A stretch of DNA of 64,000 nucleotides, from positions 62,001 through 126,000 of the forward strand of contig RSEE01000131.1 in the NCBI GenBank assembly GCA_003971905.1, in the 5' to 3' direction. The translations under genes and the position numbers were made by a program. The notes below the pieces were generated by a model. It was not told where the DNA came from, made no database searches, and saw only the letters and a program-made list of their open reading frames with translations. Position 1 is the first letter of the stretch; the number at the start of each line of letters is the position of its first letter. Origin of the DNA: Moniliella sp. 'wahieum' (Eukaryota). Of the stretch, positions 43,775 through 57,096 are shown piece by piece.

Positions 43775-44022
43775 GAGTGGTGTGCTGAAGGAGGAGAGAG
43801 GTGCAGAGGCGATGAGGAGGGGGTAGGGCCGTTTATATAGCAGAGGGTACCGGGGAGCAGAGGGAGCGTCCGGGCGGATGGTAAGAGTGGTCATCGCTAC
43901 TAATCGTCCTACTATCTTCTCTGCTTCCCCGGCCAGCTCGCTGTTACGGGCGACGGTGGGTGGCCGAGCCCGACCGAGCGCATCCGAGTCCATCCTCTCC
44001 CCTTTGTCCCTGGCTTGGGTTA
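43775..44022. repeat. Copy 1 of a duplicated segment downstream of PDC, with a minus-strand TATA box (copy 2 at ~54639-54872)
   Basis: GAGGAGAGAGGTGCAG...GGGGTAGGGCC.TTTATATAGCA...CAGCTCGCTGTTACGGGCGACGGTGGGTGGCCGAGCCCGACCGAGC...CATCCTCTCCC occurs at both sites. Confidence 0.9.
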
Positions 44023-44657
44023 GGTCTACGTCAAGACTATAGTAGGCTGGCTTGCCTGAGTTCCGCTAAACGTTGAACAAACCCATGCAGTCTTTGTGTC
44101 CAAACGGAGCATGTTCCCATCGAGATCTATGCAAGTAGAAGAAGGCCTGTAGATCAGATGGCCCCTAAACTGACTTCTGAAAGAGCGAGGGAGCCGATCC
44201 CAAGCACGGAGAGGGTAAGCGACGTATCGAGAAGTTGGGGCTGCAGTTGTCCCCCGCTACTACCTCTGTCACCGTCCCCCCGAATACGAAAGGCTCCATA
44301 CATACACGTTAATAATACTACCACTGACGGCGGTGCTGCATGACGCCTACAGGATGGGACCTACACAACCTTGCCACACAAGCAGCAGCCTCATCTGCTT
44401 AACCCCGACGAGCCCCTTCTTGCCCCAATATACCCCCGCTTGGAGCCACCAATAAGCCCGAGCACGAAGAGGAAACATACCATCAGTTGGCCTTTCCAAC
44501 CCCGTTTGTACCCATAAATCCTCCGAGCTATATAATAACGGGAAAAGCGATACTACGATTCCAATTGATAGACGGAAACAAACAAGGAATTCGAAGTGAA
44601 ACAGAGAGGAGCAGAAGGGAAAACGCAAGCAAAGAGTCGGTTACACGTATCTTGCCC

Positions 44658-45727
44658 TCACAGGCAGCTTTTGATCAAGTCGACAAAAGGCTGGAAAACG
44701 GGGGAGCTAGTACCGCCGGACAAAATACTGTCATGACCATGGTTGGTATCGATGAAGAGCGAGCTGGACAAACCAGCAATGTTGGTGAAGGTGGTAATGT
44801 CCCCGCGCAGTACCTCTAGCCCACCCGCGGAAACAAAAACCTTGTCGGGCGAGGGAGAAACAGCCGACCAATCAATATAGTCCTTGAACTGGTTTTGCAG
44901 CGGGGCTTGAACTGCCTCCACATCGGGGAGATACTCAATAGCTGACTCACGGAGGAACTTGGCTGTGAGGATATCAGAATTGTTGTTGTTGCTTGCCCAG
45001 GTCCCATTGTTCTGGGTCGGGTACAAGTTGACCCATGGGCTCAACAAACCAACACATGAAGGTTTCTGGGTAATCGATGGAGTAACCGAGAGAGGATGCG
45101 CCAAGGTGCGGGCCACCTCAAGGGAGAGATGACCTCCGGCCGAATCACCAGCGAGGATAATGTTACTGCTCGATTGCGACAGACGGTTGTAAACCTCGAC
45201 GGCTTGCTGGAGCTGGGTCGGGTAGGGATAGTCCGGAGCGAGGTTGTAATCCAGCCACAGGATGGAAAGACGGTCGCTTCCGACGGATTGATAAACGCTT
45301 TGCAATTCCGTTGCAAAGACGGGCAGCGTACCAATCACGTATGCCCCGCCGTGAAGATAGAAGAGCACAGGATCGTGTTGCGTTCGGTTTTCCGCTTCGG
45401 TGAACCAGCGCACACGGTCGGAACTCACATGGGTGAGATCCGTGGCGAACACCGCATTCTTGTTGGGCATTGGGTTTGTGGCGAAAGCCTCGTTTTCAGC
45501 CAGAGTGAAGGGCGGGATCACGGAGACAACCTCGGGGGTGAAACGTTGTTCTCCAACGCCGATGCAAAGAATCCCACGATGCGGGATTCAGTTTGCTCAA
45601 CCGGATCAAACGGGCTGACAACCGGAAAGGTCAGGCGCTTGGCCATGTTGGAAAAGGTGGGGAACGCTTGAACAGTAGCGACCCCGGCGGCCGAAAGGGT
45701 GAAAGCAATGGTTTTTTGGAGCTTCAT
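44658..45727 (-). CDS. Secreted HSL-family alpha/beta hydrolase (Say1/steryl acetyl hydrolase-like esterase); intronless; one frameshift near 45535
   Basis: Signal peptide MKLQKTIAFTLSAAGVATVQA; DPVLFYLHGGAY, LDYNLAP..PYPTQL, ILAGDSAGGHL, LLSPWV, EVLRGD, HGHD. Confidence 0.88.
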
Positions 45728-46521
45728 GAGTTCTGTGCGTGTGTGGATGTATGCAATGGACCGTGGCAGACCGCCGAAAACCACGCACTATTTAACCAAA
45801 AAGATACGATCTCTTTACTCTCACGGGAGGGCGAGAGAGAGAAAGTGTATTCCCTTCTATGCCTCCGGAAGCGGCCCAAATGTCAATGCGCGAGTGGGGA
45901 ACCAGCTGCGCTTTGATGTTCCTCATAAGGCCGAGAGCTCAATGAGTGCTCTGAAGCGAGCATTCGATCGGCATCCAACGAAGAGTGTGTATTATCGGTG
46001 TGGGGAGTGGACTCAGTACCCGCACATATGCGAAGGTATACGTCTTTTTTTCGCAATGACGAGTATGAGGAAATGGGACACCCGCAAGTGTATGTGTGGC
46101 CGTTGCCCCACAGTGGGCCTCTTCCTCGTCGACGTAGGTACTCGGATTTTTTGAGTTGGGAGGATTTGGCTGATGGCGCTGACGTGTGGGGTACTGAGTG
46201 TGCTGAGGCCTCTGAGGCTATGTAGGGAAAGCTGCGTCCGCCTTGCTTCCAGTTGTAAGCACCGAAGCTTGAAGTTCATGAGCAGGCACTAGCGCATTGA
46301 ACATGGTTGACGTTGAACGTTAACTCAAGGGGGGCAGGAGGCCGCCTGGGGGAAAAGGCACAGCGAGTAGAAGCCGGCGGCCTGCTGCCTGCATCCGCAT
46401 ATGGGGCATGGGGTTTTTGTGTGAGCGCTTAGGCTAAGCGCTTTCCCCCAACCACCTCGTCACAACTGTCAACGTTGTCAACACTGGCATGTGTCACAGA
46501 TGTCAGGGAGGCTTGAGGGCC

Positions 46522-54255: not shown

Positions 54256-54381
54256 CACCCTAGCCACCACCCTAGCCACCACCCTAGCCACCACCCTAGC
54301 CACCACCCTAGCCACCACCCTAGCCACCACCCTAGCCACCACCTAGCCACCACCCTAGCCGCCAGCCTAGCCGCCAGCCTA
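54256..54381. repeat. (CACCCTAGCCAC)n 12-mer subterminal array of the transposon
   Basis: About 10 units, decaying to the right, ~230 bp inside the right TIR. Confidence 0.92.
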
Positions 54382-55033
54382 GTGAAAATCTGTGGCTAGC
54401 GTTGCCACCAGCCTGCCAGCAAGGCTGCGGACTGTCCGGGGATAGGTGGGGGATAGCTGGGGGTAACCTGGGGCCAAGCTGTCGGGTATAGATTGTCTCG
54501 ACCTTGGCGACCATCTTGCGCAAGCTTTTCTTGTACAGGGTTGTGGCACTTCTAATCATAGACTCACGGTATCAAATTCTTACCTTGAGCGAGATCGGCG
54601 GCAACGATGTGACTAGAAATTTCGATTAGCTATCAGTGGTGCTTCCGAGGAGAGAGGTGCAGAAGGCGATGAGGAGGGGGTAGGGCCTTTTATATAGCAC
54701 AGGGTACCGGAGGGGAGCAGAGGGAGCGTCCGGCGGATGATAGAGGGGTGATCGCGAATCGTTCTATGTTCTCTGCTTCCCCTCAGCTCGCTGTTACGGG
54801 CGACGGTGGGTGGCCGAGCCCGACCGAGCCCTACCGAGCCCATCCTCTCCCTTGCCTCCCTTGCCTGGGTTACACACCTCTCTCCGGTGGGCGGGCCCCA
54901 GCCTGGGATCTGCCCATGCCATCCACATTCCCACCTACTTCTGCACAAAGGTATGGGCTGGAGTATGTGAGGAATGTCCAATGTTCATGTGAAAAGGAGT
55001 GGAGGGGGTCACCGTCGGGCCCCAAATGGAAGT

Positions 55034-57096
55034 CTATGCGGCCTTGTTGGCGGCGGTAGTGAAGGCGGCCTGGAGCGCGAGGGATCGAGGACAGTCCCCT
55101 CGGGGGAGAAAGAGCTCGACAAGGTGAGCTTTGTCGGCCTTGTTGAATTCAGGGTCGGTCAGCAACGTCTCAAGCTCGGTTTGGTGTGCACAGCGTGGTA
55201 TGCAGTCTTGGATGGAACGGGGTCGCTGGCATGAGAGGGCACGGCGGGTGGAGTCCAAGTGGGTGGGGGGGTGAACAAATCAATCAATTTCGAGTGGTTC
55301 CAAATTGCAATGTCGTTGTACGCCTCGTCCGGACCAAAGATCTGCCGCTCCACTTCGTACCCGTCATTGTTGATGAGAAACATGAGAGGTGTCAGGCGTA
55401 GCGAAAGATGGTCCCCAGCTCTTGCACGGCAAGCTGGAGAGACCCATCTCCCATAAAAACCACGACGCGGCCAGAGCGTGCGGGATTGGTCTGCTTGAGC
55501 TTGCGCAGACCTAGACTTGCCCCCAGAGCCGCTCCGCATGCGTATCCAATCGAGCACCAGTACATCTGGATAATAAGCTGCACCTTGGCAGGGAACGTTA
55601 CGTCGACCAAACCAAAGGACGAGGTGCCTGCATCGCCAATGACAATGTCCCCTTCTGAAAAGAACTGGCCTAGCCGAGACCACAAGTAGCCATGGGAAAT
55701 GATATCTTTGGACTGGAAACCTTTGGCACCGCCTAGGCTTGCGAGGATGTGGTCACTAAGTTGGAGTGTCTGTTCCTCAAGGCAAGGTAGGGTGTTGATG
55801 AGGAGGAGGGAACGGACAGGAGCAAGGTATGTCTTGGTGGCAGCCAACCGCTTCGGTCCTTGCTTACAGAGCGCAGCTGTCAGTTTGGGCAAGAGGCTCG
55901 CCATCTTGATACCCTCAACAATAGTCTTGCCAATCTTGATGTGGTCCGAATGGAACTCGATCGTAGCAGTAGGGCTGACGGATCCAGAAAATGAGCCAGT
56001 GTTGAAGTCGCACGAAAAGGGACCAACAGAGAGAACGAGATCGGAGGTCTCGACAAGCTCGCAAACAGCTGGCTTGCTCAGCTTGCCAACGTAAACACCA
56101 CCAAACTGAACGTTATTCAGCTCGGTCACAACTGTCTTTCCCATAGGCGTGGAGAAGACGGGAAGACCAGTGAGCTCGACAAATTGGCGCGTCTCAGCAA
56201 GTGCGTAGCGTGAGGCACACGCGTCAACCAGGATGATAGGCTGCCTGGCTGCGTTAACGCGTTGAACAATCTCGTCCAGCACGTTGCGCTCAATCTCTTG
56301 GTTGTTGCACGCGACGGTAGTCTGCAGTTTGTAGGTTGCAAGTCGCTCAGCAGCTGAAGCAGGCAGAGGCAGGTCGACAAGGTTGCAGGGAGAGCAATGT
56401 AGACGGGAAGAGATTGAAGAAGACAAAATTCGAGAATCGAGTCAAGAGCGCGACACGCGTCGAGACCCGTGGTGATATCTTCAGTTTTTGTACCCTTGGG
56501 AATCAAAGGAAGACGACCCTCGCGTACAGTTGGTACAAGTCCAGCTGGATCCAGTAATTTGACGTGCACATTGAAAAATGTATCGAACTTGTGGTTACCT
56601 ATGGAGAGTGGATTAAGCCATGTGTGAAAACGGGGGTGGTCAGGTCAAGCTCACCACTAGTGTATAAACACACAAAACACATGTGTCTCACGGGTCGACG
56701 GAGGAAATAACGTACCAATGGTGTGGTGGAGCAAAATGCCGCTATCTTGAGCCTTGGTCGCCGAGTGCGACGATGTGGATGACAGGTATCCGCTCTGCCA
56801 TGCTACCAGCAAGTGCGTTTGCTGCGCTCATCTCGCCCACGCCAAAAGTGGTGATGAGCACGGAGGGGCGACGAGGGTGGCCTTGGATAGGACTCGAGCC
56901 AGACCGTCGGCCAGTACCCAGCGTTGAGCTCGTTCGAGTTGCCAACCAAGCTAAAACCATGCTCGCGGAGGCGCGTGAGCAGGCCGAGGGTGGAGTCGCC
57001 AGGGACACCCTGTACCAGGTCCACCTCAAGCTGCTTCAACCGTTCGCAAAGGTACTCGACAAGGGTGAGGAGGACTGGGCCTTGGACGGAAGACAT
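55034..57096 (-). CDS. PDC: Pyruvate decarboxylase / 2-oxo-acid decarboxylase (ThDP-dependent); intron 56599-56715; frameshifted
   Basis: [10 protein letters not shown]...[73 protein letters not shown]...[10 protein letters not shown]. Confidence 0.93.

What the first reader, a model, noticed from the sequence alone, without database searches (positions are those of the whole stretch)
43775..55383. Transposon sits exactly at the junction of a tandem duplication of the PDC 3' end
The order is A1 (43775-44022), insert, B1 (48784-49243), TE, A2 B2 (54639-55383), rest of PDC. Homology of B1 stops at the left TIR and A2 starts at the right TIR, with no target-site duplication. This fits alternative transposition or unequal recombination between two element copies. 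The copies have visibly diverged, so a simple assembly duplication is unlikely.
Basis: partly seen in the sequence, partly recalled or inferred. Interest (0 to 1): 0.7.

Follow-up and report, generated by a model that had tools for sequence, protein, structure and literature searches.

The report
Transposon stitching two diverged fungal haplotypes
A cut-and-paste jumping gene sits exactly at the seam of a short duplication that appears to join two different versions of the same fungal chromosome region, and two other copies of the same element sit at similar seams, which suggests that this element reshuffles the DNA next to it.

Summary
The layout is real. A 5.39-kb CACTA/EnSpm-like (CMCT) transposon (49244-54634, CA..TG ends) separates two copies of the PDC 3' end plus downstream DNA; homology stops at the element's ends to within 0-2 bp. 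The family makes 2-bp target duplications (empty site checked); this copy has none. An unduplicated, element-free homologue exists (contig C51). Left copy, right copy and C51 are about equally diverged (5-6%, far above the assembly's substitution noise), and only the left copy carries a 4.76-kb lipase insert. So the junction most likely joins two already diverged haplotypes rather than one allele that was copied and then decayed. Of 11 near-full-length copies, 3 lack a target duplication and all 3 mark rearrangements: this one, a ~315-bp duplication (C50), a ~496-bp deletion (C22). Best reading: hybrid-end (P-element-like) transposition into the homologue (0.45). Rivals: unequal crossover between two copies (0.22), old sister-chromatid duplication (0.18), assembly chimera (0.12). 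No reads were listed. The mechanism is known from P and Ac; my searches found no fungal CMC case.

The parts
42139..43009 (-). GST-like gene (frameshifted in this assembly); its upstream region includes A1
   Evidence: Weak Pfam GST_N_2 hit, E 0.002, below cut-off; collinear with C51
43775..44022 (.). A1, left copy of segment A (haplotype X); promoter-like, with a TATA-like word on the minus strand; lacks 18 bp, bounded by an 8-bp direct repeat, at the position where the element abuts A2
44023..48783 (.). 4.76-kb segment present only in the left copy, in place of a 50-bp spacer shared by the right copy and C51; no allele-level match elsewhere in the assembly
44658..45727 (-). Lipase/esterase gene (Say1_Mug180, Abhydrolase_3) inside the insert; best paralogues 74-78% identical; start codon inferred from the sequence
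47930..48785 (.). Old 856-bp dispersed repeat (73-76% to C5, C27, C65) ending at the start of B1
48784..49243 (-). B1, orphan 3' end of PDC (about 116 codons plus 3' flank), haplotype X
49244..54634 (-). CMCT (CACTA/EnSpm-like) DNA transposon, 5.39 kb; transposase on the minus strand, broken by frameshifts in this assembly; no target duplication
49244..49267 (+). Left terminal inverted repeat, imperfect at its tip (CATATAGCT.. versus family CATAGCT..)
50900..52130 (-). Transposase core motifs: GDN..A.E (about 52126; the following C(2)C is out of frame here, in frame in 9 of the 10 other copies), DVMHT (about 51569), H(3)H in PKFHLQSH (about 50983), QREE (about 50911)
54256..54390 (+). 12-bp tandem repeat near the right end of the element
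54613..54634 (-). Right terminal inverted repeat; last base C instead of G
54635..54872 (.). A2, right copy of A (haplotype Y), starting at the element's end
54873..54922 (.). 50-bp spacer shared with C51, absent from the left copy
54923..55383 (-). B2, 3' end of the complete PDC gene (haplotype Y)
55034..57096 (-). Complete pyruvate decarboxylase-like gene (TPP enzyme), with frameshifts that differ from those in the C51 copy

Best explanation
The contig is a recombinant between two diverged homologous haplotypes, joined by the transposon. Left of the element is haplotype X (GST, A1, lipase insert, PDC 3' end); right of it is haplotype Y (A2, spacer, whole PDC). The join was made by the transposase: the element's two ends ended up on two different DNA molecules at sites about 0.76 kb apart in homologous coordinates. 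The simplest route is hybrid element insertion: an element at the A site of Y; after replication the left end of one chromatid and the right end of its sister act together and attack the PDC gene on homologue X. One product is X-left / element / Y-right, with the interval doubled, one element, and no matching target duplication; the reciprocal product is a deletion next to the element. Shown: geometry, family ends and 2-bp duplication, three-way divergence, two further family copies with the duplication and the deletion geometry. Inferred: that X and Y were homologues in one cell, that the transposase (not homologous recombination) made the join, and which junction is the newer.
For: Breakpoints at both ends within 0-2 bp. 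Family makes 2-bp duplications: 7 of 10 other copies exact, an eighth (C35) after one extra base; empty site on C123 holds the dinucleotide once. The 3 of 11 copies without a duplication all mark rearrangements against their homologues: window vs C51, C50 with a ~315-bp flank doubled at both ends, 3 mismatches between copies, single in C2, C22 replacing ~496 bp present in C20. The three copies checked against homologues that are simple insertions (C72, C35, C79) show no such change. In B, substitutions private to X, Y, C51 are 14, 15, 10 of 456 columns; young element copies carry only 0.08-0.34% private substitutions. B1-private coding changes are 5 synonymous, 2 non-synonymous (p 0.01-0.02 against neutrality). 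The lipase insert has no allele or close donor. Y and C51 share the spacer and the 18-bp state. One element only, no clear single-crossover mosaic.
Against: No reads. Both tips of this copy are imperfect, whereas a fresh strand transfer should leave one perfect. A1 lacks 18 bp exactly at the A2 insertion point, which looks like an excision scar and fits a same-chromosome event. Divergence from C51 is the same left and right of the junction (about 2-4% isolated substitutions per kb), so no haplotype switch is visible outside A/B. The synonymous excess rests on 7 changes, and B2 (2:6) and C51 (3:5) show none. The element's age is not decisive: 67 private substitutions in 5266 columns against about 160 expected, but its tree branch is 1.9%, compatible with a 2% per-lineage rate. 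Other same-contig duplicates with 3-4% substitutions exist (two PDC paralogue loci on C72). The geometry alone cannot separate this from unequal crossover.
Confidence: 0.45

Rival explanations
1. Unequal crossover between two element copies: X carried one inside PDC, Y carried one at A (for example after a local hop onto the homologue); homologous recombination inside the 5.4-kb repeat gave X-left / chimeric element / Y-right.
For: Predicts the same geometry: one element, no shared target duplication, diverged copies. Family copies do exchange sequence: the C50 copy has a ~0.5-kb tract from the other subfamily. The region downstream of PDC genes was hit more than once: the C72 copy's empty site lies 570 bp 3' of a PDC paralogue.
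Against: Needs two insertions within 0.76 kb, and the same twice more (C50, C22). The window copy shows no single switch between the two sampled subfamilies, although two parents from one unsampled subfamily would leave no trace. Neither parental allele is in the assembly.
Confidence: 0.22
2. An old same-chromosome event: alternative transposition between sister chromatids doubled A-B; the copies then diverged and the left copy later gained the lipase segment.
For: The 18-bp loss in A1 at the A2 insertion point is the scar this model predicts. C50 proves that the family can double a flank within one haplotype. The window copy is older than most (1.27% private, branch 1.9%). Same-contig duplicates at 3-4% occur elsewhere.
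Against: X and Y are not closer to each other (29 differences in B) than to C51 (24 and 25); difference events unique to X outnumber those unique to C51, 21 to 7 over A and B, of which 5 X events are likely noise or edge effects. B1 does not look decayed. A recent gain of the lipase needs a close donor, and none is found.
Confidence: 0.18
3. Assembly chimera: the sample holds a third haplotype, each of X and Y has its own element copy, and the assembler jumped from one to the other through the repeat.
For: The assembly is indel-rich (copies within one subfamily differ by 34-104 gap columns), a 5.4-kb repeat can cause misjoins, and no reads could be examined.
Against: Searches with the flanks returned two allele-level copies, C131 and C51, never a third (lower bounds, top candidates only). 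The assembler keeps 4-5% diverged haplotypes apart elsewhere. It still needs two insertions 0.76 kb apart. The C22 deletion and C50 duplication would need separate misjoins.
Confidence: 0.12

Closest known systems
P-element hybrid element insertion (male recombination with flanking duplications and deletions; Gray et al. 1996, Preston et al. 1996)
   Same: One element at a crossover point, a short flanking duplication or deletion with a breakpoint at the element's end, ends taken from sister chromatids or homologues (definition read in passages of PMC2775673; the two 1996 papers seen only as reference-list entries; their details are recalled).
   Different: CMCT-type element with 2-bp target duplication in a basidiomycete; natural, fixed alleles rather than induced events; homologues 5-6% diverged; mechanism inferred, not observed.
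Ac/Ds reversed-ends transposition making tandem direct duplications (PMC3744419; passages and Discussion read)
   Same: Tandem direct duplication with an element exactly at the junction, reciprocal deletion, no NAHR needed.
   Different: That route needs two nearby elements and leaves two copies, one with an intact duplication; here there is one. The paper found 3 such cases among 7611 maize hAT insertions, against 3 rearrangement junctions among 11 copies here (different search criteria).
CMCT clade transposons: fungal EnSpm, ESTA, PlavakaB (PMC12730594; passages read; one supplement search); CNIRT6 of Cryptococcus (PMC12810828; passages)
   Same: 5'-CA..TG-3' ends, 2-5 bp duplication, C(2)C and H(3-4)H motifs in the transposase.
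   Different: Ends CATAG rather than CAC, CACTG or CATCA; 2-bp duplication of variable sequence, often TA; closest named proteins are hypothetical Tilletia proteins at about 24-41% over short stretches; lineage within the clade not placed.

Membership tests
CMCT clade DNA transposon | 5'-CA..TG-3' termini with terminal inverted repeats | tested here: met
   20 of 20 ends of the 10 other near-full-length copies; the window copy's own two tips are altered
CMCT clade DNA transposon | 2-5 bp target duplication | tested here: met
   2 bp in 7 of 10 copies exactly, 8 of 10; empty site on C123
CMCT clade DNA transposon | C(2)C and H(3-4)H motifs between second D and last E | tested here: met
   GDN..CRFC in 9 of 11 copies by pattern (frameshifted in the window copy; in C35 the motif is visible but fell outside the search range), PKFHxxSH and QREE in order; matches P0122, which has a sub-threshold Transposase_21 hit, E 0.0015
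EnSpm / ESTA / Plavaka lineage within CMCT | Phylogenetic placement of the transposase | not tested
   No reference set in the script box; Pfam gave 0 families for 12 element frames
Hybrid element insertion product | Rearrangement breakpoint exactly at an element end, single element, unmatched half-sites | tested here: met
Hybrid element insertion product | Exchange of flanking markers between homologues | tested here: inconclusive
   Three-way divergence in A/B supports it; no change in divergence from C51 across the junction; parental haplotypes not available
Hybrid element insertion product | Element not chimeric; new junction has an intact end | tested here: inconclusive
   No single switch; both tips altered
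Hybrid element insertion product | Transposase dependence; reciprocal product sharing the new target duplication | not testable with these tools
   No reciprocal deletion of this locus in the assembly; C22 shows the deletion geometry at another locus
Ac-type reversed-ends duplication | Two element copies, the first flanked by an intact target duplication | tested here: not met
   One copy only in the window
NAHR between two copies on one chromosome | Three element copies around the duplication | tested here: not met
   One copy; crossover between single copies on two homologues is not excluded by this

The most novel reading that the evidence does not exclude
This CMCT family often resolves a jump in trans: its two ends are joined to two different DNA molecules (sister or homologue) at sites 0.3-0.8 kb apart, possibly with no earlier copy at the locus. 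It would then act as a crossover agent that stitches diverged haplotypes together and leaves short duplications or deletions at about a quarter of its insertions. The lack of any excision scar at either boundary of the C50 duplication fits this, and the frequent damage to the terminal base (10 of 46 ends) would reflect the same loosely coupled cutting.
Probability: 0.22. Interest if true: 0.7.

Novelty: new member of a known kind. Interest (0 to 1): 0.45.

Why it matters
Transposon-made duplications and deletions are documented for P and hAT elements, mostly in induced systems. Here a natural fungal CACTA-like family shows both reciprocal geometries at 3 of 11 near-full-length copies, and one event appears to recombine haplotypes 5-6% apart, bringing a haplotype-specific lipase next to another haplotype's PDC without losing a gene. 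If reads confirm it, the family is a compact model for how these little-studied transposases cut and join, and for recombination without meiosis in heterozygous fungi. If not, it is a warning that repeats join haplotypes in noisy assemblies.

Tried and rejected
Simple assembly repeat of one sequence: rejected, 27-29 substitutions in B against 0.08-0.34% private substitutions in young element copies. A fourth duplication case at the C21 derivative: rejected, the 1.68-kb repeats stop 818 and 719 bp short of the element and belong to a three-copy tandem gene array. C35 first scored as lacking a duplication; the homologue shows a simple insertion with one extra base. C79 likewise is a simple insertion with an altered tip. 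The C50 element first looked like a single-crossover chimera; with more sites it is an internal ~0.5-kb tract, so it was not counted for unequal crossover. Chimerism of the window copy: no single switch; one subfamily-2-like block at element positions 4.2-4.5 kb may be shared ancestry. The first distance table mixed orientations and was redone. TA-only (Tc1-like) target: rejected, duplications include TC, TG, GA, TT, CC. RIP-like bias: not evident (27 C>T/G>A among 67 private changes). A single rule for the altered tips (P-nucleotides) did not fit by eye. P0121, top hit, is a repetitive chance match. Homologues of C36, C172, C98 and C21 (no duplication, altered tips) were not examined; no doubled flank was seen in the 3-5 kb held for C36, C172, C98. 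Literature: searches returned 2, 8, 3 and 1 papers, none by title or abstract a fungal CMC case; the library lacks most subscription papers. A guess at the host genus (recalled) gave nothing useful.
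Full report
Setting. The window is G000:C131:62001-126000 of a 69.5-Mb, 223-contig assembly. A MIF4G protein in the window has only distant named relatives, all basidiomycetes, at 40-48%; the gene right of the element is a PDC-type TPP enzyme, about 40% identical to named fungal PDCs. The assembly is indel-rich but substitution-poor: young element copies differ within a subfamily by 19-48 substitutions and 34-104 gap columns in 5.3 kb. It holds two homologous copies of this region: C131 is collinear with C51 over about 67 kb at 87-95% identity.

Observation. Self-comparison confirms A1/A2 and B1/B2 and a perfect 21-bp inverted repeat at 49247-49267 and 54613-54633. C51:140341-146826 carries GST, A, a 50-bp spacer, B and the rest of PDC once, with no element and no insert. 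In C51 coordinates the doubled interval is 143370-144133, 764 bp. B1 homology ends at 49243 and A2 homology begins at 54635.

The element. A search of the genome returned 78 matches, among them 10 full-length copies including this one at 92-93% and one (C35) with an internal gap (lower bounds). The other ten all read CA-TAGCT..AGCTA-TG at their ends. The C50 copy shows that the CA belongs to the element, and the empty site on C123 shows that a dinucleotide is doubled on insertion. Seven of ten have an exact 2-bp duplication, and C35 has one after allowing one extra base. The minus strand encodes a transposase with GDN..C(2)C, DVMHT, H(3)H and QREE in order. It matches P0122, which has a sub-threshold Transposase_21 hit and relatives among Tilletia hypothetical proteins. 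Pfam gave nothing for the element's own frames; the Atlas gave basidiomycete clusters, some with DUF6830 on 22-31% of members (a lead only). Ends, duplication length and motifs match the CMCT clade as defined in PMC12730594 (passages). The lineage within the clade was not placed.

The junctions. The window copy reads CATATAGCT at the left (two extra bases, or C>T plus one flank change) and AGCTATC at the right. Either way the offset from the end of homology is 0-2 bp left and 0 bp right, and the half-sites differ. Altered tips are a family trait: 10 of 46 ends examined, namely 2 of 2 here, 0 of 20 in the other near-full-length copies, 8 of 24 in older or deleted copies. I could not explain them; damage from aborted cutting plus survival of immobilised copies is my inference.

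Same geometry elsewhere. With 10 kb of flank on each side of the ten other copies, one doubled flank abuts the element: at C50 about 315 bp lie directly left and directly right of it, with 3 mismatches; the homologue C2 has the segment once and shows no scar at either boundary. At C22 the element stands in place of about 496 bp present in the homologue C20. These two and the window copy are the 3 of 11 without a target duplication. Three copies checked against homologues are plain insertions (C72, C35, C79). Among eight further copies with both ends, three have exact duplications, C79 is a plain insertion, and four (C36, C172, C98, C21) lack one and were not compared with homologues.

Where the two copies came from. 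In B, private substitutions are 14 (left, X), 15 (right, Y) and 10 (C51) in 456 columns: X and Y are no closer to each other than to C51. Counted as events over A and B, 21 are unique to X (5 likely noise or edge), 10 to Y, 7 to C51, 14 differ in all three. Y and C51 share the 50-bp spacer; X has 4.76 kb with a lipase gene that has no match above 78%. B1's private coding changes are 5 synonymous and 2 non-synonymous plus a codon added before the stop and four single-base gaps; neutrality predicts 24-28% synonymous (p 0.01-0.02), and the long PDC exon of Y versus C51 gives 19:18. The element has 67 private substitutions in 5266 columns, against about 160 if it were as old as the B1/B2 split. 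These points favour a join between haplotypes that had already diverged. Against this: B2 and C51 show no synonymous excess in the same stretch; the element's tree branch (1.9%) is compatible with a 2% rate (p 0.32); divergence from C51 does not change across the junction; two PDC paralogue loci on one contig differ by a similar amount; and A1 lacks 18 bp, between 8-bp direct repeats, right where the element abuts A2, which a same-chromosome event would predict as an excision scar but which may be a slippage indel.

Mechanism. Hybrid element insertion (definition from passages of PMC2775673) gives, from one element, a recombinant with the interval doubled and a reciprocal with it deleted, each with unmatched half-sites. 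That accounts for the window (target on the homologue), C50 (target in the same haplotype) and C22 (deletion) with one rule. Unequal crossover between single copies on two homologues gives the same products but needs two insertions within a kilobase each time; the discriminating test, a chimeric element, was inconclusive. Ac-type reversed-ends transposition and same-chromosome NAHR predict two or three element copies (PMC3744419, Discussion) and do not fit. An assembly chimera needs a third haplotype that the flank searches do not show, but no reads were listed. Odds: 0.45, 0.22, 0.18 for an old sister-chromatid event, 0.12 for artefact.

Consequence. No gene is lost: GST keeps A1, PDC stays whole with B2, the lipase is retained, and B1 is an orphan fragment. 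The frameshifts in PDC differ between C131 and C51 and are probably mostly assembly errors.

Novelty. The kind of event is known from P and hAT elements. Four literature searches showed no fungal CMC example by title or abstract, within a library that lacks most subscription papers. The scan's index had no note near this place or on this sequence; its notes on this genome concern other EnSpm-like elements with 7-bp duplications. Verdict: a real, transposon-made junction, a new member of a known kind, interesting mainly for how often this family does it; interest 0.45.

Noticed in passing
window 61972-61974: C131 stops matching C51 and starts matching C120 with no shared sequence between C51 and C120 in the stretches held: a translocation-type breakpoint between the two haplotypes, with no element at the seam.
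   Followed up: partly
family ends in L078, L081, L083, L084, L088, L109 and the window: The terminal one or two bases are altered in 10 of 46 ends, on both ends in three copies, while the rest of the inverted repeat is mostly intact; the same CATATAGCT form occurs in the window and at C79.
   Followed up: partly
L073 (C123:129455) and window 54634: Two copies of this family lie 570 bp and about 400 bp downstream of a PDC gene; at least a dozen PDC paralogues at 67-72% exist in the genome.
   Followed up: partly
L117, L118, L057, L073 (C72 twice, C154, C123): Four PDC paralogue loci are 92-96% identical to each other, two of them inverted on one contig; three share about 4 kb downstream that ends in remnants of a related transposon.
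   Followed up: partly
window 54639-54752 and L062:147-285: Segment A and the C50 duplicated segment both contain a promoter-like motif with dozens of 74-83% matches genome-wide; both duplication-making copies sit in it.
   Followed up: no
L006 element positions about 360-830: The C50 copy carries a ~0.5-kb tract from the other subfamily, like a gene-conversion patch.
   Followed up: partly
window 22664-22864 and 60386-61038: Two short high-copy repeats (201 bp at 92-100%; about 652 bp at 88-91%) inserted relative to C51; likely MITE or solo-LTR-type elements.
   Followed up: no
window 46519-46604: A 7-bp tandem array (TCAAGCT) and other 7-bp repeats in the insert, of the kind described in earlier scan notes on this genome.
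   Followed up: no
C21:39749-50865 (L109, L116): Three tandem copies of a gene whose frames look like a purple acid phosphatase (label recalled from motifs, no family search), with a 2.8-kb family derivative between the first two.
   Followed up: partly
L037 (C131:129358-130498): A second lipase paralogue (78%) lies about 22 kb right of the insert's lipase, in opposite orientation, with an allele on C120.
   Followed up: partly
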